Positions 4,620-60,786 of a stretch of 64,000 bases of DNA are shown piece by piece. The translations under genes were made by a program, and so were the position numbers. The stretch is from Dehalococcoidia bacterium. GTDB taxonomy: Bacteria; Chloroflexota; Dehalococcoidia; Lucifugimonadales; CATOSD01. Numbering within the stretch: position 1 is the first letter of the stretch; every line of letters starts with the position of its first letter. The notes under the pieces were generated by a model. The model did no database searches. It was not told the DNA's origin and saw only the letters and a list, made by a program, of their open reading frames with translations. The stretch is from NCBI GenBank assembly GCA_034422735.1, contig DAOUJL010000079.1:37699-101698 (forward strand), in the 5' to 3' direction.

Positions 4620-5102
4620 ATCCCAACCGCACTCCCTCGCCCACACCCGGCTCAGTCGCTCCCCCGTACCCCGAAAATTCCGTAACTTTCCCGCGCCACG
4701 CGTTCCCCAGCCCTGCCTCTGCCAACCCCACGCACGCCCACCTCGTCCCCACGTCTGCGCCATTTCTCCCCACCAAACCGCCCCCATACCCACATTTTCA
4801 CTAAGGCCATTGCAATACACGTACATCCGTGCTAACCTCGGCCGTGTGAGGGACTGACCCCACGGCCCGCAAATCCTGCCCTCAATCGGGATTATGCCCC
4901 AGGCATCCGGCGGAACGCCCCTTCCAGGCGCCCTCCGGCGGCGAAGACACGGCCGGTCGGCCCGTCCGTCCCCTGTCCTCTTCTGCCACGCGGCGGGACA
5001 CTTTTGCTATGAATTGTCCCCTCCGGCATTACAGAACTGAGCAGGGCCACCGACGGTCCCAGCTACGAATCGCACAGAATGTCGCAGAATCTAACAGAAT
5101 TC
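4620..5102 (+). repeat. Divergent copy (A) of dispersed non-coding element: C-rich tract, promoter, CCCAGCTACG and 10-bp array
   Basis: CCCCGAAAATTCCGTAACTTTCCCGCGCCAC matches the tract near 39520-39555. CCCAGCTACG at 5058-5067. GAAT at 5067, 5077, 5087 and 5097. No terminal inverted repeats recognised. Confidence 0.7.
4810..4838 (+). promoter_or_regulatory. sigma70-like promoter inside element copy A
   Basis: TTGCAA-N17-TAACCT with an extended -10 TG; same position as the promoters in copies B, C and D. Confidence 0.5.
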
Positions 5103-34662: not shown

Positions 34663-35811
34663 ATGGACTTCGCCTACCAATACACGGATGAACAGCAGCG
34701 CTTCCGCGCCGAGGTGTCGGCCTGGCTCGACGCCAACGCGCCGCCTGACACTGCGCGCGGTCCCGACAGCCCGTCGCGGCAGCGCCTGCGGCTTGCCCTG
34801 GGCGAGAATGGCTGGCTCGCGCCGTCTCTGCCAGTCGAGCAAGGGGGCGCGGGCCTGACGCCGGACCACACGGTCGTGGTGCTGGAGGAGTTGGACAGGC
34901 GCGGGCTGCTCTCGGTGCACGACGCCGCGGGTGCCCAGCTACGCAGCGCGCTGATCGAGTCCGGTTCGGAGTCGCTGCGCGGCGAACTGCTTCCGGCGCT
35001 CGCCAGTGGCAGGGCGGCGGTGTGGCGCATGGTGCTGGACCCGCACGCCGAGCCGGGCAGCGACACGCTTGGCGTGAGCGCGCGTCCCGACGCCGACGGG
35101 TTCATCCTGGACGGCGAGGCCGCCTTCACTGGCGCGGGCGCGGCCCCGACGCACCTGTGGACGCTGGCGACTTCCGAGCGCGACGGTGCGATTCTGGCGC
35201 TGGTCGTCCCGGCCGCGTTGCACGGCGTCAGCGTCTCCACGCCCCGCACGCTCGCGGACGGCGCCTTGCACCGGGCCGCGTTTGAGGACGCCTGGGTTCC
35301 GCGCACGTCCATGCTGGGGGACGAGGCCGACGGCTGGCGTGTCACCCGCTCGGCGGCGCTGGACGACCCCGCGCTGGACCTCCCCGTTCCCGAGGTGAGC
35401 CGCGAGGCGGAGGCCGTGTTGCGGTTCGCCAGGAATACGACGCACGAGGGCAGGCCGCTCAGCGAGGAGCCGGTGCGCCGGATGCTGCTGGTGGAGGCCT
35501 ACGTGGACAGCCGGCTGTCGCGGCTGCTTGCGATGCGCAACCAGTGGCGCCGCGCCGCGGGACTGCCCATGACGTACGAGCTCGCCCAGGCGGACATGCT
35601 GAGGGAGCGGGCCGCGCTGCGCCTGTCCCACATCACGCAGGAAGTGGCGGGCGTGTACGCGCTGCTGGACTCGGACGACCCCCGGTCAGGTTCGCCGGGC
35701 TTTGCGACGCAGCAGCGCCAGAGCGTCGCCGGCCAGAATCCGACCGGACTGCCGGACGCCCGCAGGCAGGCCATCGCGGAGGCGCTGGGCATGAGCAAGC
35801 CGGCCGGCTGA
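34663..35811 (+). CDS. Degenerate acyl-CoA dehydrogenase-family protein
   Basis: ACAD-like N-terminus (TDEQQRFRAEV, GWLAP..P.EQGG), but FAD/substrate motifs are eroded (DPHAEPGSD; C-terminal GQNPTGLP). Confidence 0.75.
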   Translation: MDFAYQYTDEQQRFRAEVSAWLDANAPPDTARGPDSPSRQRLRLALGENGWLAPSLPVEQGGAGLTPDHTVVVLEELDRRGLLSVHDAAGAQLRSALIESGSESLRGELLPALASGRAAVWRMVLDPHAEPGSDTLGVSARPDADGFILDGEAAFTGAGAAPTHLWTLATSERDGAILALVVPAALHGVSVSTPRTLADGALHRAAFEDAWVPRTSMLGDEADGWRVTRSAALDDPALDLPVPEVSREAEAVLRFARNTTHEGRPLSEEPVRRMLLVEAYVDSRLSRLLAMRNQWRRAAGLPMTYELAQADMLRERAALRLSHITQEVAGVYALLDSDDPRSGSPGFATQQRQSVAGQNPTGLPDARRQAIAEALGMSKPAG

Positions 35812-39418: not shown

Positions 39419-40096
39419 GGCCTTTTCATTCCCCGTCGCGGCAACCTGCCGGCGGGCGAGGGCAACGGCGTCACTTCCGCTTGTCACCACTCCCCCAACA
39501 CCAACCCATTCGCGCCCACGTATCCCGAAAAAAGCGTCACTTTCCCGCGCCACCCGTTCCCATCCGTGCGCCATCCATTCTCACCCGCGTTCTACCAGTT
39601 CCCGTCCGTGCGCCATTTCTCCCCACAAATTCGAACTGCCCCTACAATCTCGCCAACCCTATTGATTCTACAGCACGCACGTGCTATTTTCTACGTAGCA
39701 GTCGCCGCGGCGCCAGTTGTGGAGTAGGGGCGGAGCCTGCCCTGAACTTGCCGAATGGGTTTGAAACCCGCCCGTTCCCCGCCCAAGATCACTGTCGCGT
39801 TCTGCGACATTTGGCGCAATGCGCGTGACGAACCTTAACAACTTGGCTCACAAGAAGTGACAATAGAATCGGACCGCCCAGCTACGGAATGGGCAGAATT
39901 GTGCAGAACTGAGCAGATTTTTCCGAGAGCCGCGCCCAAAGCCCTTCCGCTTGTCCCCTCTCCCTCGATGGGAGAGGGCTAGAGCCTGCCCCGTACTTGA
40001 TGCGGGGGCGAGGGTGAAGACACGACCACAGCCGACGAATCTAAAGCCTCCATCCCGACCCTCTCTCCTGACCGGAGAGGGCAGAATGAAAAGGCT
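39419..40096 (+). mobile_element. MITE-like non-autonomous element, copy B
   Basis: Terminal inverted repeats GCCTTTTCATTC (39420-39431) and GAATGAAAAGGC (40084-40095). The body aligns by eye over more than 500 bp with the reverse complement of 60130-60751. Confidence 0.75.
39662..39690 (+). promoter_or_regulatory. sigma70-like promoter inside element copy B
   Basis: TTGATT-N17-TATTTT with an extended -10 TG. Confidence 0.5.
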
Positions 40097-43949: not shown

Positions 43950-45047
43950 ATGACTGACAAGGGAAGGGTCGTCGTCGCTATGAGCGGGGGTGTGGACTCC
44001 TCCGTCGCCGCGCTGCTGCTCAAGCGGCAGGGCTTCGACGTCGTGGGCGTCACCATGCGGCTGTGGTCGGTGGAGGATCCCAACGCCCCCGCGCTGAACA
44101 AGCGCTGCTGCTCGGTGGAGGACGTGGACGACGCCCGCCGCGTGTGCCAGGTCATCGGCGCGCCGCACTACGTGATGAACTTCGAGCGCGAGTTCCAGCA
44201 GCACGTCATCGACTACTTCGTTCGCGAGTACGACCGCGGCCGCACGCCCCACCCCTGCCTGGCCTGCAACGACAGGATCAAGTTCGACTTCCTGCTGCGC
44301 CGGGCGATGTTCCTGGGCGCCGACTACGTGGCCACCGGCCACTACGCCCGCATACGGCGCGGCGAGGACGGCTACCGGCTGCTGACGGGCGCCGACGGGA
44401 GCAAAGACCAGTCCTACGTCCTGTTCACGCTCCGACAGCGTGAGTTGGAGCGGCTGCTTCTGCCGGTTGGCGAGTACCCCAAGAGCGAGGTGCGCGACCT
44501 GGCGGCGGAGGCGGGTCTGCCGGTGGCGGACAAGCCCGACAGCCAGGAGATCTGCTTCATACCGTCCGGAGATTACCGCAAGTTCGTTGGGGAGCGCACC
44601 AAGCCGAGGGCGGGCGAGATGGTGTCCACCTCTGGTGAGGTGCTCGGCGAGCATCCCGGAATCCAGTTCTTCACCATCGGCCAGCGCAGGCGGCTGGGAC
44701 TCCAGGGCAACACCGGCGCGCCGATGTACGTCGTGGAGATAGACACCGACTCGAACCGCGTGGTGCTTGGCCGAGAGGACGACCTGCTGAGGCGGTCGTT
44801 CTGGGCGTCCAGGGTCAATTTTACGGCTGGTGAGACTCCCTCCGGCCCCCTCGCCGTCGATGCCAAAATACGCTACAAGTCGGGGCGGGCCGCCGCGTCC
44901 ATCGTGCCCCACGGTGACTGGGCAGAAATCTGTTTCGACACGCCCCAGCGGGCGGTCACTCCCGGGCAGGCGGTGGTATTCTACCGCGGCGACGAGGTGC
45001 TGGGCGGCGGCATAATCGAGCTGGAGCCGCCGAGCGTTGCCGCGTGA
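43950..45047 (+). CDS. mnmA: tRNA-specific 2-thiouridylase
   Basis: AMSGGVDSS, TPHPCLACN, ATGHY, KDQSY, DSQEICF, TIGQRR, PGQA. Confidence 0.97.
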   Translation: MTDKGRVVVAMSGGVDSSVAALLLKRQGFDVVGVTMRLWSVEDPNAPALNKRCCSVEDVDDARRVCQVIGAPHYVMNFEREFQQHVIDYFVREYDRGRTPHPCLACNDRIKFDFLLRRAMFLGADYVATGHYARIRRGEDGYRLLTGADGSKDQSYVLFTLRQRELERLLLPVGEYPKSEVRDLAAEAGLPVADKPDSQEICFIPSGDYRKFVGERTKPRAGEMVSTSGEVLGEHPGIQFFTIGQRRRLGLQGNTGAPMYVVEIDTDSNRVVLGREDDLLRRSFWASRVNFTAGETPSGPLAVDAKIRYKSGRAAASIVPHGDWAEICFDTPQRAVTPGQAVVFYRGDEVLGGGIIELEPPSVAA

Positions 45048-46065
45048 CCTCGGCCCGCGCCAGGCCGCCAGGCAGCAGAAGCCGACGCTTGCGCACGAGC
45101 AACGGCTGCGAGAGCAGGGCATCTGGCCCGTCGCCGGGCTGGACGAGGCCGGACGCGGCTCCATAGCCGGACCGGTCACCGCCGGGGTAGTGGTGCTTCC
45201 TCCGGACGTGCCGGACTGCCAGGACGCCCCGATACGCGACAGCAAGCGGCTCACACCCGCTCAGCGGGAGCGGGCGCTGCGGCACATCGAGTCCATCGCG
45301 CTCGCGGTGGGCGTCGGCCACTGCTCCGCACCTGAAATCGACGAGATGGGCATCGCGCCCGCGACGCGCGTCGCCATGAAGCGGGCGCTGGAGGCGCTCT
45401 CGCTGGAGCCGTCGTATCTGCTGCTGGACGCCTTCCCCCTGCCCGGGGTCGCCACGCCCCAGCTCGCCATAGTGCGCGGCGACGCGACCTGCATGTCCAT
45501 CGCCGCCGCGTCCATTGTCGCCAAGGTTGCGCGGGATCGGCACATGGCCGAGCAGGACGAGCGGATTCCGGGCTACGGGTTCGCCCGCCACAAGGGCTAC
45601 GGCACCGCCGAGCACATTCGGAACCTGGAGCGGCTGGGGCCTAGCTCCATACACCGGCGCACCTTCGCGCCCCTGAAGCTCACTCTGGCGCTCAGCCAGG
45701 AGACGCCCAGGCAGGGGCTTGGGAAAACCGGCGAGGAACTGGCGCGCCGGCGACTGGTGGAGGACGGGCGCGCCGTCCTGGCCGCCAACTTCCGCACACG
45801 CAGCGGGGAGATCGACCTCGTTACCGAGAAGGACGGCGTGGTGGCGTTCGTCGAAGTCCGTGCGAAGCGCGGGACGGCGTTCGGCACGCCGGAGGAATCG
45901 CTCACAAGGCGCAAGCTGGCCCGTATGGTGAGGTGCGCCCACGAGTTTCTGGCCGAGCGGCGCTGGCAGAACCGCCCCTGGCGCATCGACGTGGTGGCCG
46001 TAGAGATGGACAGGTCGGGCAGGCTGCGGCGCGTCGAAGTGCTCGAGAACGCCGTGGAGGGATGA
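45037..46065 (+). CDS. rnhB: Ribonuclease HII fused to a C-terminal YraN (UPF0102) PD-(D/E)xK nuclease domain
   Basis: GLDEAGRG, DSK, SIAAASIVAK, KGYGT, then without a stop G..GEELA, GEIDLV, FVEV, RIDVVAV. Confidence 0.92.
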   Translation: MPRDLGPRQAARQQKPTLAHEQRLREQGIWPVAGLDEAGRGSIAGPVTAGVVVLPPDVPDCQDAPIRDSKRLTPAQRERALRHIESIALAVGVGHCSAPEIDEMGIAPATRVAMKRALEALSLEPSYLLLDAFPLPGVATPQLAIVRGDATCMSIAAASIVAKVARDRHMAEQDERIPGYGFARHKGYGTAEHIRNLERLGPSSIHRRTFAPLKLTLALSQETPRQGLGKTGEELARRRLVEDGRAVLAANFRTRSGEIDLVTEKDGVVAFVEVRAKRGTAFGTPEESLTRRKLARMVRCAHEFLAERRWQNRPWRIDVVAVEMDRSGRLRRVEVLENAVEG

Positions 46066-47169: not shown

Positions 47170-49356
47170 CTACCCGCTGCCGCGGTTGCTGTGGAGCAAC
47201 TCGGGACGGTCACGCCACTTGTCGAGGAAGCGGCGGTAGTTCTTGCGGCTCAGCTCGTCCCTCTCGCCCTCGGGCAACTCGCTCCAGACCCGGTGCTCAT
47301 GCTGGGCAACGGGCAGAGTGGGATCTGCGACGATGCGGTAGCCTCGGTCCTTGAAGTGGAAACTGTAATCGATGTCGAGGTTCCGGTAGAACCGGAAGCT
47401 CTCGCGCATCAGCCCCACACCCGCGAGGCTCTCGCGCCGGAATGCGAAGCAGTACGCCTGCATGGCATCCATGTCGCCGGACTCGCCCTCTCCGTCGTGG
47501 AAGTGGTGCAGGTCGTTGGTGCGCAGCCCGAATGGGCCGGCAACGCCCACGCTCTCGTCCTGCAGCATTGCATCGAGCGGGCCGAACAGGTCGCCGACCA
47601 CCTCTGTGCTGGTGTCGAGCAGCACTACGAGCTTGCCGCGGCACTGCTTCAGCACGATGTTCTTGGCGGCGCCTTCTCCTAGTACATGGTCCGTGTGAAT
47701 CACGCGAATCCTGGTGTCGCCTGCCGACGCCTCCTCCAGCCAGTCCGCCGCCCCGTCGACGGAGCCGTTGTCCACGACAACCAGCTCGACGGAGCGGCCG
47801 TCGGCCCACCTGAGCGTGGAGAGTACGCATCGCTTCACGTCTTCGACGTAGTTGCAGGCGACGATTCCAATGCTGACGTCCGCGGCGTCCGGCTCGTCGA
47901 GCAGGGAAGGCACCTCGGCGGAGGACGAGTAGCTGTGCCAGCCCTCCTGGCGCTTTTCCCAGGCGGTCTTGGGCCGCACACGGGACCCAGTCGCCGTGTC
48001 TTCCACCACGTAGCCCTCTCCGGATAGGGTGCCGCGGATGGCGTCCGCGCTGCCGTATTCGCCGGCGGAACGCATCTGCGAGCGATCTTTCACACGCGTC
48101 TCCACGTCGTCGGGCACAGCGTAGGCTGCGGCGGGCTGTTCCAGTTCGAGCCCGAGCACCTCGTCGAACGCGCGGACGGCGCGCAGCTTCAGCGCGGCGG
48201 GGGCGTCGGATCGCGCCAACTCCCAGGTCAGGGCCAGCGCCGCGGGCATGTTCAGGTCATCATTCACCAGACGCATGAAGCGGTCGCGCCATTCGAGGAG
48301 CGCGGCCTCGTCGAAGTCGGCTTCTCCGGACGCGCCGCTCCACTCCCGCACCCTGTTGCGGAGCCTGTGGAGGCCGCGCTGGGCGGCCTTGAGCGCGGTG
48401 AAGGTGAAGTTGAGCCTGGTGCGATACCTGGCGGTGAGGCACAGGTAGCGGAACGCGAGGGGGTCGATGTCCTGGCTCTCGATGTCCGAGAGGATGAACG
48501 AGTTTCCGGCCGACTTGGCCATCTTGACACCGTCGGCGAGCAGGTGCTGGCCGTGTGTCCACACGCTGACCACCGTTTCGCCGGTGAAGCCCTCGCTCTG
48601 GGCGATTTCGCCCTCGTGGTGCGGAAAGATGTTGTCCACGCCGCCGGTGTGCAGATCGAACCGGCGGCCCAGGTACTTGACGGACATCGCGGAGCACTCG
48701 ATGTGCCAGCCCGGAAAGCCCTCGCCCCAGCGACTGGGCCACTTCAGGTCGCGGCCCGGTTCCGCCAGCTTCCACAGCGTGAAGTCTCGCGGGTCCTTCT
48801 TCAGCGGGTCTGCCTCGACGCGCACCGCCTCCAGCAGCTCGGCGTCCTGGATGTTGCCGGAAAGCCTGCCGTAGTCCGCGAAAGAGTCCACGTCGTAGTA
48901 AACGTTGCCCTCCACCTCGTAGGCGTGGCCTGCCTCCACCAGTCCGTCCACTATCTCGAGCATCTCGGTCACGTGGTCGGTGGCCTTCGGGAAGTGCTTC
49001 GCCGGGATGATGTTGACCTTGCGCTCGTCGGCGAAGAAGCGGTCCGTGTAAAACTGGGCGATCTCGGCGGGCGTCTTGCCCTCGGCGATGGCGGCGGCGA
49101 TCACCTTGTCCTCGCCCTGCTCCAGCACCTCCTGGCGCATGTGGCCCACGTCGGTGATGTTCTTTACGTGGGTAACCTCGAGGCCCTGGGATTCGAGAGC
49201 GCGGCGGATCCAGTCGGCCATCAGGTAGGAGCGCAGATTGCCGATGTGGGCGTCGCGGTAGACGGTGGGGCCGCAGGTGTACATCTTTACCCTGCCTGGC
49301 TCAAGCGGGCAAAGCTCCTCCACTCGTCTCGTGAGGGTGTTGTATAGCCTAAGCAA
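47170..49356 (-). CDS. cysS: Cysteinyl-tRNA synthetase fused to a C-terminal GT2 glycosyltransferase domain
   Basis: CGPTVY, HIGN, GWHIECSAM, FPHHE, KMAKS and the anticodon-binding helices, then a GT-A domain (VVVDNGSVDG, G..AAKN, LLDTS, LDIDYS). TTG start inferred at 49356. Confidence 0.92.
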   Translation of the reverse strand: MLRLYNTLTRRVEELCPLEPGRVKMYTCGPTVYRDAHIGNLRSYLMADWIRRALESQGLEVTHVKNITDVGHMRQEVLEQGEDKVIAAAIAEGKTPAEIAQFYTDRFFADERKVNIIPAKHFPKATDHVTEMLEIVDGLVEAGHAYEVEGNVYYDVDSFADYGRLSGNIQDAELLEAVRVEADPLKKDPRDFTLWKLAEPGRDLKWPSRWGEGFPGWHIECSAMSVKYLGRRFDLHTGGVDNIFPHHEGEIAQSEGFTGETVVSVWTHGQHLLADGVKMAKSAGNSFILSDIESQDIDPLAFRYLCLTARYRTRLNFTFTALKAAQRGLHRLRNRVREWSGASGEADFDEAALLEWRDRFMRLVNDDLNMPAALALTWELARSDAPAALKLRAVRAFDEVLGLELEQPAAAYAVPDDVETRVKDRSQMRSAGEYGSADAIRGTLSGEGYVVEDTATGSRVRPKTAWEKRQEGWHSYSSSAEVPSLLDEPDAADVSIGIVACNYVEDVKRCVLSTLRWADGRSVELVVVDNGSVDGAADWLEEASAGDTRIRVIHTDHVLGEGAAKNIVLKQCRGKLVVLLDTSTEVVGDLFGPLDAMLQDESVGVAGPFGLRTNDLHHFHDGEGESGDMDAMQAYCFAFRRESLAGVGLMRESFRFYRNLDIDYSFHFKDRGYRIVADPTLPVAQHEHRVWSELPEGERDELSRKNYRRFLDKWRDRPELLHSNRGSG

Positions 49357-49624
49357 TTGTCGCCACTGTCCCTGAGATTCGCAGCAATTATACGACCGGC
49401 CGTCCATCGTGTCTAATGCGGGGCCGCGTCGTTAGGCGAGCGCTGCGGGCCGCCCGTACCCAATTGTACTGCTAAGTACCGGTCGGGGACTACGGAACAC
49501 GGGCGCTCATGCGGGCGAAATGCTATACAATGATGCGTGGCGGGTGGCTTGCGCCGCGTCTTCGTCCGCAGACTGTCACAACCACGACCTCAACCCGCGT
49601 AGAAGTTCCCCGCCGGTGTGCGTT

Positions 49625-50326
49625 ATGGTAGACATCAGGCAGCTATTCAATCTACAAGAACTCGACTGGGAGATCGCCTCCAGGGCCAAAACGCTGGAGG
49701 AGACCAGGTTTCGACTGAACGACGTGTCCGCCATCGAGGCGATGCGGCGCCGGCAGGCCCTGATCGGCAGCCAACTGGACGAAGCCCGCACCGAGAGGCG
49801 AAAGCGCGAGACGGCAGTGAGCGGATTGGAGCAGCGGCTGGAGAATCTGGATCGCAGGTTGTACGGTGGCTTCGTCACCAACCCCCGCGAACTTGAGGCC
49901 AGCGAGGAGGAGCGGGCCTTTCTGCAACAGCAGAGGTCGGAGGAGGAAGACGGCCTGCTCGAGGCACTGGTGCTCTCCGAGGAGTTGGAGGAGGGGCTGT
50001 CGGCGGCGGGCGAGCGCGTAGCTGCGATGGAGTCGGCCCGCGACGCGGAGCGGCCCGGTCTGCTGGAACGCGAGAGCCGGCTCGCAGCCGAGCTCGAGGA
50101 ACTGCGCCGGGCGCGCGAAGAGGCTGCGCCGCAACTGCCGGCGGGCGCACTTTCAACTTACGAGTCGCTGCTGAGAAGCAAGAACGGCCACGCGGTCGCG
50201 CGGGTCGAGCGGTCGGTGTGCCAGGGCTGCCGGATGACGCTGCCGTCGTTGGAGGTGCAGCGGGCCAAGTCTCCCACGCGAGTTGCTCTGTGCAGCAACT
50301 GTGGCAGAATCCTGTACGTGGTGTGA
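49625..50326 (+). CDS. Coiled-coil protein with C4 zinc ribbon (DUF164/zf-RING_7 family)
   Basis: LFNLQELD N-terminus, long heptad region, CQGC...CSNCGRILY. Confidence 0.9.
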   Translation: MVDIRQLFNLQELDWEIASRAKTLEETRFRLNDVSAIEAMRRRQALIGSQLDEARTERRKRETAVSGLEQRLENLDRRLYGGFVTNPRELEASEEERAFLQQQRSEEEDGLLEALVLSEELEEGLSAAGERVAAMESARDAERPGLLERESRLAAELEELRRAREEAAPQLPAGALSTYESLLRSKNGHAVARVERSVCQGCRMTLPSLEVQRAKSPTRVALCSNCGRILYVV

Positions 50327-50333
50327 TCCGAGC

Positions 50334-51674
50334 ATGAGAGCTATCGGCTATTTTCGTCCCAAAGAGGGGCCAAAGTACGTGGAGGCCTTCGAGGAGGCCT
50401 TCCTGGACTACTGCGACCGTAACGGTCACCAGCCGGTGGAGACATTCTACGACTACATCGATGGGGGCGGCGGCCGGCTGCCCAACTATCGGGCGATGGT
50501 CGAGTTCATGCGCGAGAACACCGGCGGCTACCTCGTGGTGGTGCCGGACGCCACGCACTTGGGAGGCGAACTGGAAGCCGTGGCGCGCGCCGTCGTCGAG
50601 TTGGAAGCGCTGGGCGGCAAGGTGACGTGCGACGACGACGATATGCCCGATCCACTGCAGAACAGCTTCCTGACACTGGACGTGAAGGGCGTTTCGCGCA
50701 CGCGGAGCACTCGCATCCAGACGTCCATGCGCCGCCGCGCCATGCAGGGCCTGGGGCTGGGAAAGCCGCCCTACGGCTACCGCATCGGCTCGAAGGGAAC
50801 GCTGGAGGTGGTGCCGGAAGAGGTCCCGGTGGTGGAGCTGATCTTCCGCCTGCGCACGAAAGAAGAGCTGGGAGTCCGGCTCATCGCGCGCCACCTGAAC
50901 GAGCGGGGCATACCCACGCGGCGCGGCGGTAAGTGGAACATGGTCACCATCCGCGACATTCTGCGAAACTCTACCTACATCGGCACCTACCGCAGGTTCG
51001 ACATGAGCGTCCCGAACAGTCACGAGGCCATAATTCCGGGAGAGGTCTTCCGTGCGGCGCAGGAGGTCACGAGGGCGCGCCGACCGGTGGGACGCGTAGT
51101 CAACGCCCAGCCGTTTCTGCTGTCGGGCTTGGTGGTCTGCGGCTACTGCGACAATAAGATGATGGGCGTGACCCGCCGCCAGAGTTGGAAGCGCAAGGAC
51201 GGGCGCCGGGCACGCGGAGTCTATCGCTACTACCAATGCCAGACCCGAAACAACCAGAGCCTTTGCGGCTACCACACCTGGCGCGCCTCCAGGCTGGAGG
51301 GGACGGCGATGGGGCAGCTCAAGCAGGCCCTACGCTCCAGGGAATTGGAAGCGCGGTTGGACCCGGAGGCGGCCAAAAGCCGGCAGGAACAGGCCAAAGC
51401 CGAGTGGGAAACCCGCGTGCGGAATGCCGAAAGGCGCTTTGTGCAGAGCATGAGGCAGGCGGCCAGAGGCAAGCTCACCACCGAGCGGCTGGGCGAATAC
51501 CTCGATGACCTGGACAGCGTGAGGACCGCCGCGAAGAACGCGGATCGGCCCCTGGACGTCGACAAGACGCTGGCAAACTGGGATTCGCTGGATCTGGGCG
51601 ACCAGCAGCGCTTCCTGAACGAGCACGTGGCCCGCATAGTCGTCAAGGACGACTCCGTGGAGGTGGCGGTCTAG
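50334..51674 (+). CDS. Large serine recombinase homologue with degenerate catalytic domain
   Basis: Recombinase domain (PPYGY, IARHLN, W....IRDIL.N, HEAII) and zinc ribbon (CGYC, YYQC...C) are intact. N-terminal GYFRPK replaces GYARVS. Confidence 0.88.
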   Translation: MRAIGYFRPKEGPKYVEAFEEAFLDYCDRNGHQPVETFYDYIDGGGGRLPNYRAMVEFMRENTGGYLVVVPDATHLGGELEAVARAVVELEALGGKVTCDDDDMPDPLQNSFLTLDVKGVSRTRSTRIQTSMRRRAMQGLGLGKPPYGYRIGSKGTLEVVPEEVPVVELIFRLRTKEELGVRLIARHLNERGIPTRRGGKWNMVTIRDILRNSTYIGTYRRFDMSVPNSHEAIIPGEVFRAAQEVTRARRPVGRVVNAQPFLLSGLVVCGYCDNKMMGVTRRQSWKRKDGRRARGVYRYYQCQTRNNQSLCGYHTWRASRLEGTAMGQLKQALRSRELEARLDPEAAKSRQEQAKAEWETRVRNAERRFVQSMRQAARGKLTTERLGEYLDDLDSVRTAAKNADRPLDVDKTLANWDSLDLGDQQRFLNEHVARIVVKDDSVEVAV

Positions 51675-51786: not shown

Positions 51787-51825
51787 TTAAGTTTGGCCGT
51801 CCTGACTAACACGGGTTCGTCATCC

Positions 51826-52101
51826 CAACCCCCTATTGACCCAACCCGTACATCCGTGCTACGCTCCTTCCATCACGCACCTACACAACCAAATCGCAAC
51901 CCTCGACCGCCCCCTGCCGGGTGTCCCATTCATGCCCTACCCTGTGGCGTTTCCGCACCAAATGCCGCCTGACGCGGGACACACGACGCCCGTGACAACC
52001 CAGACTGTGGCGCGCCCAGCTACGCAATGCATCGAAATGCATCAGTTTGCAACGCTTTCTGCTAAGGCGCGACACGGAATGACCCCGAATGACCCACATT
52101 C
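51826..52101 (+). repeat. Divergent copy (D) of the promoter/CCCAGCTACG/10-bp-array core
   Basis: TTGACC-N18-TACGCT shares GTACATCCGTGCTA with copy A. CCCAGCTACG at 52015-52024, AATGC at 52026 and 52036, GAATGACCC at 52077 and 52087. Confidence 0.6.
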
Positions 52102-52188
52102 CGCCAAGTTCCCGGCCCTGTCGCGCCGCCATCGCGTGACCGCCAATCGCGAGCCTTTAACAATTCAATATGTAAGCCATCCAAAACG

Positions 52189-52197
52189 TGCTACAAT
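52189..52197 (+). promoter_or_regulatory. Extended -10 promoter of rnpB
   Basis: TG-C-TACAAT ending 7 nt before the predicted RNA 5' end. Confidence 0.6.
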
Positions 52198-52203
52198 TCC
52201 TGT

Positions 52204-52577
52204 GTCGAGGTGGCCGGGCGGCCGCCCTGGTCGCGCCCACGGGCGCGGGCGAGGGAGGAAAGTCCGAGCTCCACAGGGTAAGGATGCCCGCTAACGGCGG
52301 GGCGGGGCGACTCGACGGAAAGCGCCACAGAAACATGCCGCCGCCTTCGCAACGAGGGCGGTAAGGGTGAAAAGGTGAGGTAAGAGCTCACCGCCTTGGC
52401 GGTAACGTCAAGGGCTAGGCAAGCCCCATCCGGAGCAAGGCCAAATAGGGGGAACACTGGCTTACCCGGCCATTCTCCGGGTTGGCCGCACGACCCAACC
52501 GGCAACGATTGGGCTAGATAGATGGCTGCCGTCCCGGTGTTCCGGGATACAGAACTCGGCTTACAGGCCGCCTCGAC
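52204..52577 (+). ncRNA. rnpB: RNase P RNA (type A)
   Basis: GAGGAAAGTCC near the 5' end and ACAGAACTCGGCTTAC near the 3' end; P1 pairing GTCGAGG/CCTCGAC; CCACAGAAA and GGTAAGAG conserved blocks. Confidence 0.97.
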
Positions 52578-52598
52578 CAAGCCACATCCCAGGACTCT

Positions 52599-60220: not shown

Positions 60221-60478
60221 ACATCAGGGTCTCTGGGCGCGGCTCTCCGAAAAATCTGCTCAATTCTGCTACATTCTGCACATTCCGTAGCTGGGCGGCC
60301 CGATGTTCTTGTCACTTCTTGTGAGCCAAGTTGTTAAGGTTCGTCACGAGCATTGCGCAGAATGTCACAGAACGCGACCCGTTCGGCAAGCTCAGGGCAG
60401 GCTCCGTTCGGCCGAGGGCGGGCGGGTTTCAAACTTGCCCCCACTCCACAACCGGCGGCCGCAGTGCCTATGCTGTAG

Positions 60479-60507
60479 AAAATAGCACGTGTGTGCTGTA
60501 GAATCAA
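60479..60507 (-). promoter_or_regulatory. sigma70-like promoter inside element copy C, facing the corrinoid protein gene
   Basis: Minus strand TTGATT-N17-TATTTT. Confidence 0.5.
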
Positions 60508-60786
60508 GAGGGTTGGCGAAATTGCCGGATGGGGGCGAATTTGTGGGGAGAAATTGCGCACGAATGGGAACTGGTAGAACGTGGGTGAGAATGGCTGGAG
60601 CACGGATGGGAACGGGTGGCGCGGGAAAGTGACGCTTTTTTCGGGGTACGTGGGCGCGAATGAGTTGGAGTTGGGGGAGAGGGGACAAGCGGAAGGGACG
60701 CGGTTACCCTCACCCGCCGGCAGCTTGCCGCGACGGAGAATGAAAAGGCCCTGTGCCCAGCCCAGCGCCGCACCAGCATGGCCGCG

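What the first reader, a model, noticed from the sequence alone, without database searches (positions are those of the whole stretch)
50334..51674. Catalytically dead large serine recombinase apparently domesticated beside rnpB
Seen: the N-terminus MRAIGYFRPK aligns residue for residue with the resolvase consensus MRLFGYARVS, so the Ser10 nucleophile is Lys. The SG...RP motif reads GGGGRLP and DRLxR reads THLGG. The recombinase DNA-binding domain, zinc ribbon and a short coiled coil are intact, with no frameshifts. The gene starts 7 nt after a housekeeping zinc-ribbon gene, has host-like composition and carries no phage or ICE cargo. Inference: a recombinase repurposed as a DNA-binding regulator, architectural protein or dominant-negative inhibitor of incoming integrases. 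Its position next to cassette copy D makes binding to the 10-bp arrays a testable but speculative idea.
Basis: partly seen in the sequence, partly recalled or inferred. Interest (0 to 1): 0.75.

Follow-up and report, generated by a model that had tools for sequence, protein, structure and literature searches.

The report
Serine-less integrase relic kept as host gene
A gene with the full shape of a phage-type DNA integrase has lost the residues that cut DNA, yet selection has kept it across a whole class of bacteria (Dehalococcoidia, including marine SAR202), fused in an operon to an RNA-polymerase-associated zinc-ribbon gene, so it looks like an integrase turned into a host DNA-binding factor.

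Summary
Window 50334..51674 (+) encodes a 446-aa protein with the full large-serine-recombinase (LSR) layout: resolvase-fold N-domain, recombinase domain, four-Cys zinc ribbon and coiled coil. The catalytic Ser aligns with Lys10, R68 with His75 and R71 with Gly78.

This is not recent decay. In 412 full-length relatives the Ser position varies freely (Ser in 6%). The R68 position is Arg in 3 of 412, and R71 is replaced nearly everywhere. dN/dS is 0.01-0.27 in every domain and lowest in the DNA-binding domains. Protein distances track CysS (r = 0.92), and composition matches the host.

The DUF164/CdsZ-type gene lies directly upstream in 80 of 80 Dehalococcoidia/SAR202 genome loci, usually 6-10 nt away. 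rnpB follows in about two thirds of them. All neighbours are housekeeping genes, with no mobile-element genes or att sites.

The proposed link to "cassette D" fails. That element occurs only in the window and its three closest relatives.

Best reading: an anciently domesticated, inactive LSR working as a sequence-specific DNA-binding or bridging protein, probably together with the RNA-polymerase-associated DUF164 protein. Inactivity and domestication are well supported by sequence. The function is inferred. I found no description of such a family.

The parts
49521..49531 (+). Promoter-like extended -10 (TGCTATACAAT) upstream of the DUF164 gene
   Evidence: Read from the sequence. It is conserved in the eight closest loci, L001-L007 and L010. 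The simple -35/-10 scanner did not call it.
49625..50326 (+). DUF164 / CdsZ-FlgZ-type gene (coiled-coil hairpin plus C4 zinc ribbon), 233 aa, the constant upstream partner
   Evidence: Pfam CT398_CC PF24481 (E 5.7e-10) and Zn_ribbon_9 PF02591 (E 7.5e-9). NCBIfam Zn_ribbon_CdsZ scores 51 bits, below its cut-off. The start at 49625 is set by the orthologue matches. An orthologue lies directly upstream of the LSR-like gene in 80 of 80 loci, with a 6-10 nt gap in 62.
50334..51674 (+). Serine-less large-serine-recombinase homologue, 446 aa
   Evidence: More than 1100 homologues, the top 120 full length at 55-97% identity.
50334..50753 (+). N-terminal resolvase-fold domain plus helix E (aa 1-140). 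K10 (50361-50363) replaces the Ser nucleophile, H75 (50556-50558) replaces R68, and G78 (50565-50567) replaces R71.
   Evidence: PF00239 at 24.9 bits. Alignments to phage LSRs and TnpX. Column counts. dN/dS 0.07-0.26. Family-specific invariant residues: C27, H32, Q33, E81, R85, S121, R124, S125.
50754..51098 (+). Recombinase domain (aa 141-255), a DNA-binding domain of LSRs
   Evidence: PF07508, E 4e-19. Matches A118 and SPbeta integrase chains. dN/dS 0.00-0.11.
51099..51323 (+). Zinc-ribbon domain (aa 256-330) with four invariant Cys
   Evidence: PF13408, E 7e-12. C269, C272, C302 and C311 are invariant. dN/dS 0.00-0.07.
51324..51671 (+). Coiled-coil arm and C-terminal strands (aa 331-446)
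   Evidence: AF2 helices 318-342, 344-377 and 383-402, and strands 434-445. dN/dS 0.06-0.27.
51814..52188 (+). Lineage-specific insert between the gene and the rnpB promoter ('cassette D'). It holds CCCAGCTACG at 52015-52024 followed by repeats phased at about 10 bp.
   Evidence: Shared only with L001, L002 and L004. Absent from L003, L005-L007 and L010, where the spacer is 55-56 nt. Layout shown.
52189..52197 (+). rnpB extended -10 promoter (TGCTACAAT)
   Evidence: A TGnTAnAAT-type box (TAnAAT nearly always, the TG often) lies about 8-15 nt before the rnpB 5' end in nearly all loci that carry rnpB. This is an inference from the consensus.
52206..52579 (+). rnpB, bacterial type A RNase P RNA
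   Evidence: RF00010, 303.9 bits, E 1.6e-98, full model.

Best explanation
**What the sequence shows**
- The gene is an anciently domesticated large serine recombinase that can no longer catalyse recombination by the known chemistry.
- It keeps the whole LSR body: resolvase-fold domain, helix E, recombinase domain, zinc ribbon and coiled coil.
- Of the six residues shown to be crucial in Tn3 resolvase, three are gone: S10, R68 and R71. This holds across the family.
- It is a vertically inherited chromosomal gene of Dehalococcoidia/SAR202. It lies in an operon immediately after a DUF164/CdsZ-type gene, and in most lineages its stop codon abuts the rnpB promoter.

**What is inferred**
- The protein acts as a dimeric, sequence-specific DNA-binding protein. 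It probably still pairs or loops sites through helix E and the coiled coil, without cutting.
- This is how resolvase dimers act at accessory res sites, and how TnpR acts as a repressor.
- Its partner is probably the DUF164 protein, whose relatives associate with RNA polymerase and sigma factors.
- The pair would then be a transcription-regulating or architectural module. The near-invariant recombinase and zinc-ribbon domains imply a DNA target that is itself conserved across the clade.
For: **Architecture**
- Pfam domains.
- AF2 model at pLDDT 79.8.
- Foldseek hits to full-length SPbeta, Bxb1, A118 and phiC31 integrases at E 1e-19 to 1e-12.

**Catalytic loss**
- Alignment to three phage LSRs whose residues at Y6, R8, S10, R68 and R71 read Y, R, S, R, R gives K10, H75 and G78 in the window protein.
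- Among 412 full-length relatives the S10 column is L70, D50, K33, G32, E26, S25 and others.
- The R68 column is H234, V102, A23 and others, with R in 3.
- The R71 column is D111, S54, A46, G44 and others.
- The 25 proteins with Ser at position 10 still lack R68, and all but one also lack R71.
- In an NJ tree the family is monophyletic against the phage LSRs, with no member carrying both arginines. Ser at position 10 is scattered at the tips.
- In Tn3 resolvase, mutating Y6, R8, S10, D36, R68 or R71 greatly reduces cleavage, while binding to the site persists (PMC2794168).

**Selection**
- dN/dS is 0.07-0.26 for the N-domain, 0.00-0.11 for the recombinase domain, 0.00-0.07 for the zinc ribbon and 0.06-0.27 for the coiled coil.

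**Vertical descent**
- Pairwise distances correlate with CysS (r = 0.92) and with DUF164 (r = 0.93).
- Composition matches the host.
- The genome scan found 159 matching stretches, and every listed locus is Dehalococcoidia, SAR202 or Chloroflexota.
- There are 243 clusters at 50% identity with E <= 1e-30.

**Operon**
- DUF164 is upstream in 80 of 80 loci, with a 6-10 nt gap in 62.
- No + strand terminator-like site lies between 49300 and 52700.

**The partner's known biology**
- CT398 and HP0958 bind RpoN (PMC3372290).
- ML1638 is predicted to bind RNAP beta' (bioRxiv 10.64898/2026.07.15.738315).
- BB0713 co-sediments with RNAP and shows antitermination and RNA-chaperone activity (bioRxiv 10.1101/2025.09.19.677338).

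**Context**
- All neighbours are housekeeping genes.
- There is no PADLOC hit.
Against: - No DNA target was found. The only k-mers conserved across the 80 loci lie inside rnpB or the gene itself. Footprinting upstream of DUF164 shows only promoter elements.
- No direct evidence links the protein physically to DUF164. No fusion proteins were found. A deeper clade has the gene without DUF164 next to it.
- The N-domain keeps family-specific invariant residues (C27, H32, Q33, E81, R85, S121, R124, S125) whose role is unknown. An unrecognised activity is therefore not excluded.
- Inactivity is inferred from sequence and not assayed.
Confidence: 0.55

Rival explanations
1. RNA-centred role. With the DUF164 protein, whose Borrelia relative has RNA-chaperone activity, the arginine-rich zinc ribbon and recombinase domain bind RNA or RNA-DNA hybrids. 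The pair would act in the biogenesis or regulation of RNase P RNA or in R-loop metabolism.
For: - The downstream neighbour is rnpB in about two thirds of loci. The spacer can be as short as 5-24 nt.
- The downstream gene is RNase H in L087.
- DUF164 lies next to rnpB in Borrelia and next to rnhA in several phyla (PMC3372290).
- BB0713 has RNA annealing and strand-displacement activity.
Against: - The recombinase and zinc-ribbon domains are known only as DNA-binding modules (structures matched).
- rnpB has its own promoter.
- The DUF164-rnpB and DUF164-rnhA links exist in phyla that lack this protein, so the adjacency may simply be inherited.
- 27 of 80 loci have pyrD, ruvB or other genes downstream instead.
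Confidence: 0.12
2. Site guard or anti-integrase immunity. The dead integrase occupies the ancestral attB-like site, or poisons incoming LSRs by forming mixed oligomers, and so protects a conserved locus from integration.
For: - It keeps the DNA-binding domains, helix E and the coiled coil, which are the parts needed for site occupancy and subunit contacts.
- The stretch between the gene and rnpB varies in the closest relatives, from 55 nt to 3.1 kb. The L001 insert carries a NYN-domain ORF.
Against: - Class-wide vertical conservation, tight coupling to a housekeeping partner and housekeeping-level dN/dS are unlike defence genes.
- There is no PADLOC hit.
- The best phage LSRs are only 22-31% identical, so mixed oligomers are unlikely.
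- Inserts still accumulate right beside it.
Confidence: 0.1
3. Still an active recombinase. It would use another nucleophile (for example the invariant S121 or S125, T74 or C99), or act only with a catalytic partner, and rearrange a host locus in the way SpoIVCA or XisF do.
For: - The N-domain is under purifying selection and has invariant polar residues.
- A sub-clade has the YxRxS motif again.
- Domesticated active LSRs exist. XisF is the best NCBIfam hit, though far below its cut-off.
Against: - R68 and R71 are missing in essentially all members, and the Ser position varies freely.
- C99 and the PDPLQN stretch align with ordinary structural motifs of LSRs: a Ser at the end of strand 4 and the DTS-P-G stretch.
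- There is no interrupted gene, no att repeats and no excisable element nearby.
- No precedent is known for another nucleophile in this fold.
Confidence: 0.05
4. Decaying remnant of a prophage or ICE integrase, that is, a recent pseudogene.
For: Only the loss of catalytic residues.
Against: - The reading frame is intact in all 80 loci.
- dN/dS is about 0.1.
- Orthologues are 49-97% identical across 32 clusters at 75% identity.
- The position is syntenic and no cargo is present.
Confidence: 0.01

Closest known systems
Large serine recombinases / serine integrases (A118/LI, SPbeta SprA, Bxb1, phiC31)
   Same: Same domain order and fold: resolvase domain, helix E, recombinase domain, zinc ribbon with inserted coiled coil. 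The four zinc Cys are kept.
   Different: - No Ser nucleophile, no R68 and no R71.
- At most 31% identity to any phage LSR in the collection.
- Not on a mobile element and no att sites.
- Vertically inherited and in an operon with a DUF164 gene.
Domesticated but active LSRs used for developmental excision (SpoIVCA, XisF, SprA)
   Same: LSRs co-opted for a host function. XisF is the top NCBIfam model at 43 bits against a cut-off of 375.
   Different: Those keep the catalytic residues and sit on an excisable element that interrupts a gene. Here the catalytic residues are gone and no element is present.
Resolvase dimers at accessory res sites (Tn3 / gamma-delta sites II and III, Sin) and TnpR acting as a repressor (from established knowledge of these systems)
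   Same: Serine-recombinase subunits that bind DNA and shape or repress it without taking part in catalysis. This is the proposed mode of action.
   Different: Those are the same active enzyme used in a non-catalytic position. Here the protein is permanently non-catalytic and of the large type.
CdsZ / FlgZ / ML1638 / BB0713 (DUF164, CT398-like coiled-coil hairpin plus Zn_ribbon_9): the partner gene
   Same: The upstream gene has both Pfam domains. Neighbourhoods with rnpB or rnhA are also reported for DUF164 genes in other phyla (PMC3372290).
   Different: In no described case is a recombinase-like gene inserted between DUF164 and rnpB or rnhA.

Membership tests
Large serine recombinase (LSR) | N-terminal resolvase-fold catalytic domain | tested here: met
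   PF00239 at 24.9 bits (cut-off 23.3) for residues 3-115 when scanned alone. AF2 shows the b-a-b fold. Foldseek hits to gamma-delta, Sin and TP901-1 catalytic domains.
Large serine recombinase (LSR) | Catalytic Ser nucleophile in the YxRxS motif | tested here: not met
   K10 in the window protein. Ser occupies this column in 25 of 412 family members, and the position otherwise varies freely.
Large serine recombinase (LSR) | Active-site arginines R8, R68 and R71 (Tn3 numbering) | tested here: not met
   R8 is kept (318 of 412). R68 becomes H75, with Arg in 3 of 412. R71 becomes G78 and that column is variable. The importance of these residues comes from PMC2794168.
Large serine recombinase (LSR) | Recombinase domain (PF07508) | tested here: met
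   E 4.2e-19, residues 161-246.
Large serine recombinase (LSR) | Zinc-ribbon domain (PF13408) with four Cys and an inserted coiled coil | tested here: met
   E 7.1e-12. C269, C272, C302 and C311 are invariant. AF2 helices 318-402 are followed by terminal strands.
Large serine recombinase (LSR) | Encoded on a mobile element or excisable segment bounded by att sites | tested here: not met
   Housekeeping neighbours in every context examined. No flanking repeats. Composition matches the host.
Large serine recombinase (LSR) | Site-specific recombination activity | not testable with these tools
   Needs in vitro or in vivo assays.
DUF164 / CdsZ-FlgZ family (partner gene 49625..50326) | CT398-like coiled-coil hairpin plus C4 Zn_ribbon_9 | tested here: met
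   PF24481 at 39.8 bits and PF02591 at 36 bits, both above their cut-offs.
Bacterial RNase P RNA type A (52206..52579) | Full-length match to covariance model RF00010 | tested here: met
   303.9 bits against a gathering score of 100, model positions 1-367.
Anti-phage defence systems (PADLOC) | Match to a defence-protein model | tested here: not met
   No hit for the LSR-like protein. Only a chance-level hit (E 0.0044) for DUF164.

The most novel reading that the evidence does not exclude
The serine-less LSR is the DNA-targeting half of a two-protein module. Its other half is the RNA-polymerase-binding CdsZ/FlgZ-type protein. The old integrase still recognises an att-like site and can synapse two sites through its coiled coil, and in this way it positions or restrains RNA polymerase at a conserved set of promoters in Dehalococcoidia/SAR202. 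rnpB, whose promoter abuts the gene's stop codon in many lineages, is one possible target. This would be the first serine integrase turned into a housekeeping transcription or architecture factor. It would also give a first DNA-linked function to the widespread DUF164 family.
Probability: 0.25. Interest if true: 0.8.

Novelty: new variant of a known kind. Interest (0 to 1): 0.62.

Why it matters
- Serine integrases are studied almost entirely as enzymes of mobile elements and as genome-engineering tools.
- This family is class-wide, vertically inherited and under purifying selection. It has kept every DNA-binding and assembly module and dropped the chemistry. That shows the LSR scaffold can be reused as a pure DNA-binding or synapsis protein.
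- It offers a natural "binding-only" LSR for studying site recognition and coiled-coil control.
- It supplies a constant genomic partner for DUF164/CdsZ proteins, whose role outside sigma-54 systems is unclear.
- It occurs in SAR202 and other Dehalococcoidia, which are abundant and largely uncultured, so gene-level functional leads there are scarce.

Tried and rejected
1. **A new Cys2His2 metal site from C27, H32, H75 and C99. Dropped.**
 - C27 and H32 sit at the start of strand 2, while H75 and C99 sit at the opposite ends of strands 3 and 4 (secondary structure).
 - C99 and PDPLQN align with ordinary LSR structural motifs.
2. **Sequence search of the N-domain against the PDB. Uninformative.**
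 - The single sequence gave nothing.
 - The profile gave only a weak TnpX match (E 0.19) and a spurious polyketide-synthase hit.
3. **Search for a conserved binding site. Nothing found.**
 - 12- and 14-mers shared across 32 clusters of loci fall only inside rnpB and the gene itself.
 - Footprinting upstream of DUF164 shows the cysS and DUF164 promoters and a conserved 5'-UTR block, with no dyad operator.
 - Nothing is conserved upstream of the rnpB -10 box.
4. **Cassette D as target. Rejected.** The element and its CCCAGCTACG motif occur only in the window, L001, L002 and L004.
5. **DUF164-LSR fusion proteins as evidence of interaction. None found.** The long outliers carry insertions or a junk N-terminal extension.
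6. **Defence-system reading.** No PADLOC hit.
7. **The consensus promoter scanner** missed the extended -10 promoters.
8. **Literature searches** for serine-less or domesticated inactive serine recombinases found nothing relevant.
9. **A linker-fused DUF164+LSR structure prediction was not run.** The tool returns no PAE or coordinates, so an interface could not be judged.
Full report
**1. What is there**

Window 50334..51674 (+) is an intact 446-aa ORF.
- Pfam finds a Recombinase domain at residues 161-246 (E 4e-19) and a recombinase zinc ribbon at residues 262-328 (E 7e-12).
- The first 139 residues, scanned alone, just pass the Resolvase model: 24.9 bits against a cut-off of 23.3.
- An AF2 model built on 35 homologues (pLDDT 79.8) shows strand-helix repeats at 2-99, a helix E at 122-137, the two DNA-binding domains, three long helices at 318-402, and two terminal strands.
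- Foldseek against the PDB returns full-length serine integrases first (SPbeta, Bxb1, A118/LI, phiC31) at E 1e-19 to 1e-12. Catalytic domains of gamma-delta/Tn3 resolvase, Sin and TP901-1 follow.
- The fold is therefore that of a complete large serine recombinase (LSR).

**2. The catalytic residues**

I fetched real phage LSR genes (Moorella MCACPph1, Streptococcus phiKSM96, Bacillus KLEB30-3S and a gut phage contig) and aligned their N-domains with family members.
- Their Y-x-R-x-S motif lines up with Y6-F-R8-P-K10 in the window protein.
- Their (L/I)DR(F/L)xR motif lines up with T74-H75-L76-G77-G78.
- A HMMER alignment to TnpX gives the same register: H75 on R68, and position 78 on R71.
- In Tn3 resolvase, mutating Y6, R8, S10, D36, R68 or R71 greatly reduces cleavage and recombination, while no mutation strongly inhibits binding to the site (PMC2794168).
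- The window protein keeps Y6, R8 and D40 and lacks the nucleophile and two arginines.
- The four zinc-binding Cys are invariant.

**3. This is not recent decay**

- A search of 5.8 billion proteins gave more than 1100 hits. The top 120 are full length at 55-97% identity.
- A profile search of 1.84 billion representatives gave 243 clusters at 50% identity with E <= 1e-30.
- In 412 full-length members the column of the catalytic Ser reads L70, D50, K33, G32, E26, S25 and others. The R68 column reads H234, V102, A23 and others, with R in 3. The R71 column reads D111, S54, A46, G44 and others.
- The 25 proteins with Ser at position 10 still lack R68, and all but one also lack R71. An example is the MRAIGYYRLSAE clade.
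- In an NJ tree rooted on phage LSRs the family is one clade, and no member carries both arginines. Ser at position 10 is scattered among the tips. This fits an unconstrained position better than a retained function.
- Nei-Gojobori dN/dS over 15 pairs is 0.07-0.26 for the N-domain, 0.00-0.11 for the recombinase domain, 0.00-0.07 for the zinc ribbon and 0.06-0.27 for the coiled coil.
- The whole protein is under purifying selection, and the DNA-binding domains most of all.

**4. Who has it, and where it sits**

- A scan of one genome per species found 159 matching stretches. All 80 loci kept are Dehalococcoidia, SAR202 or Chloroflexota MAGs.
- The closest locus (97% identity) lies on a 3.3-Mb Dehalococcoidia chromosome.
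- A DUF164 gene lies directly upstream on the same strand in 80 of 80 loci. The gap is 6-10 nt in 62 of them.
- rnpB follows on the same strand in 53 of 80 by nhmmer (52 tabulated).
- A CysS-GT2 fusion gene lies further upstream in about half the loci.
- Where rnpB is absent, the downstream gene is usually pyrD, with or without a HAD hydrolase, or ruvB on the other strand.
- Pairwise protein distances of the LSR-like gene correlate with those of CysS (r = 0.92) and of DUF164 (r = 0.93).
- GC, GC3 and codon use match the neighbouring genes.
- A deeper clade of the same family (P0204-like, also Dehalococcoidia) has two contexts. In 7 of 8 contexts the gene lies at or near a spot divergent from yceD-rpmF-fabD-fabG-nusB. 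An ABC transporter follows directly in five and within about 1.7 kb in all seven, and no DUF164 gene is present. In the eighth the order is DUF164, LSR-like gene, RNase H.
- No context contains phage, ICE or transposon genes. The family gets no PADLOC hit. NCBIfam gives only far sub-threshold XisF and Ccr matches.

**5. rnpB and the 'cassette'**

- In nearly every locus with rnpB, a TGnTAnAAT-type box sits about 8-15 nt before the RNA's 5' end (TAnAAT nearly always, the TG often).
- The spacer from the LSR stop codon to rnpB ranges from 5 to 544 nt outside the window's own group. At 21-24 nt (L008, L041, L065) the -35 region must lie inside the coding sequence.
- In the window's closest relatives the spacer is 55-56 nt (L003, L005-L007, L010). 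It is 531 nt in the window, 641 nt in L002, 1992 nt in L004 and 3156 nt in L001.
- About 390 nt of the window's spacer are shared only with L001, L002 and L004. The CCCAGCTACG motif occurs in none of the other 85 loci.
- The element has the same plan as the other window copies: the 10-mer followed by three repeats of about 10 bp. Its repeat units differ from theirs.
- It is a recent insert beside an old gene. It cannot explain the family's conserved function.
- L001's larger insert carries a NYN-domain ORF and two ORFs of unknown function.

**6. The partner**

- The upstream gene has the CT398-like coiled-coil hairpin and the Zn_ribbon_9 domain.
- CT398 and HP0958 interact with RpoN. DUF164 genes sit beside rnpB in Borrelia and beside rnhA, rpoD and dnaG elsewhere (PMC3372290).
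- The M. leprae homologue ML1638 is predicted to bind RNAP beta', with its coiled coil reaching the sigma-binding region (bioRxiv 10.64898/2026.07.15.738315).
- Borrelia BB0713 co-sediments with RNAP and shows RNA-chaperone and antitermination activity (bioRxiv 10.1101/2025.09.19.677338).
- The DUF164-rnpB and DUF164-rnhA links therefore probably predate the LSR-like gene, which sits between the two. This suggests an old integration just 3' of the DUF164 gene, after which only the integrase gene was kept. That step is inference.

**7. Most likely mechanism**

- Shown: the gene is a domesticated LSR that lacks the known catalytic apparatus and is maintained by selection with its DNA-binding and assembly modules intact.
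- Inferred: it binds a specific DNA site as a dimer and may pair sites through helix E and the coiled coil without cutting. This is analogous to resolvase at accessory res sites and to TnpR as a repressor.
- Inferred: it works with the RNA-polymerase-associated DUF164 protein as a regulatory or architectural module.
- The near-invariant recombinase and zinc-ribbon domains across the core clade imply a conserved target.
- I could not find that target. rnpB DNA is conserved for its own reasons and can be neither confirmed nor excluded.
- The rivals are an RNA-centred role, attB guarding or anti-integrase immunity, a non-canonical active recombinase, and a pseudogene. They are scored in their own section, and the pseudogene reading is refuted.

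**8. Novelty**

Four literature searches found no description of a serine-less or catalytically inactive serine recombinase family. Public annotations read only 'recombinase family protein' or 'site-specific DNA recombinase'. I rate it a new variant of a known kind: an LSR pseudo-enzyme fixed as a host gene.

**9. Verdict**

Domestication, ancient loss of the catalytic residues, purifying selection and DUF164 synteny hold. The rnpB link holds in most lineages but not all. The cassette link does not hold. Function is still inferred.

Noticed in passing
window 47170-49407 (-): A 745-aa protein fuses a class-I cysteinyl-tRNA synthetase catalytic domain (E 4e-89) to a C-terminal GT2 glycosyltransferase domain (E 2e-16). 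The fusion length is conserved in more than 40 related loci. CysRS paralogues such as MshC make low-molecular-weight thiols, so this could be a thiol-biosynthesis enzyme and not, or not only, the housekeeping CysRS.
   Followed up: no
window 45037-46065 (+): RNase HII (PF01351) is fused to a YraN/UPF0102 endonuclease-like domain (PF02021) in one 342-aa ORF.
   Followed up: no
window 4636-5100, 39419-39944, 60228-60750 (inverted copy), 34934, 51814-52188: These are repeated intergenic elements. Copies at 39.4 kb and 60.2-60.7 kb are 88-89% identical in inverted orientation. Each carries an exact CCCAGCTACG followed by three repeats phased at about 10 bp (GCAGAAT-type, or ATGCATC-type in the copy next to rnpB), and a promoter-like TTGnnn-17-TAnnnT stretch further upstream. 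The exact match at 34934 lacks the repeats. The layout looks like a protein-binding array. Its binder is unknown.
   Followed up: partly
L001 6342-9105, L004 6342-7955, L002 6342-6424: The short stretch between the LSR-like stop codon and the rnpB promoter is an insertion hot spot in the window's closest relatives. Spacers are 55 nt, 531 nt, 641 nt, 2.0 kb and 3.2 kb. The L001 insert has a NYN-domain ORF plus ORFs of 239 and 435 aa with no Pfam match, possibly a small defence or accessory islet.
   Followed up: partly
window 49590-49612: A block in the DUF164 5' leader (CGACCTCAACCCGCGTAGAAG) is almost unchanged in L001-L007 and L010, while the flanking leader sequence drifts. It could be a leader RNA element or a protein site.
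   Followed up: no
L023, L024, L077; P0059-P0075: One sub-clade of the family again reads Y-Y-R-L-S, the canonical YxRxS, but still has His at R68 and Asn or Asp at R71. It would be a natural test case for whether Ser alone restores any cleavage.
   Followed up: partly
L085, L086, L088-L092: In a deeper Dehalococcoidia clade the same serine-less LSR gene sits at or near a fixed position divergent from yceD-rpmF-fabD-fabG-nusB, with an ABC transporter downstream (adjacent in most) and no DUF164 gene beside it.
   Followed up: partly
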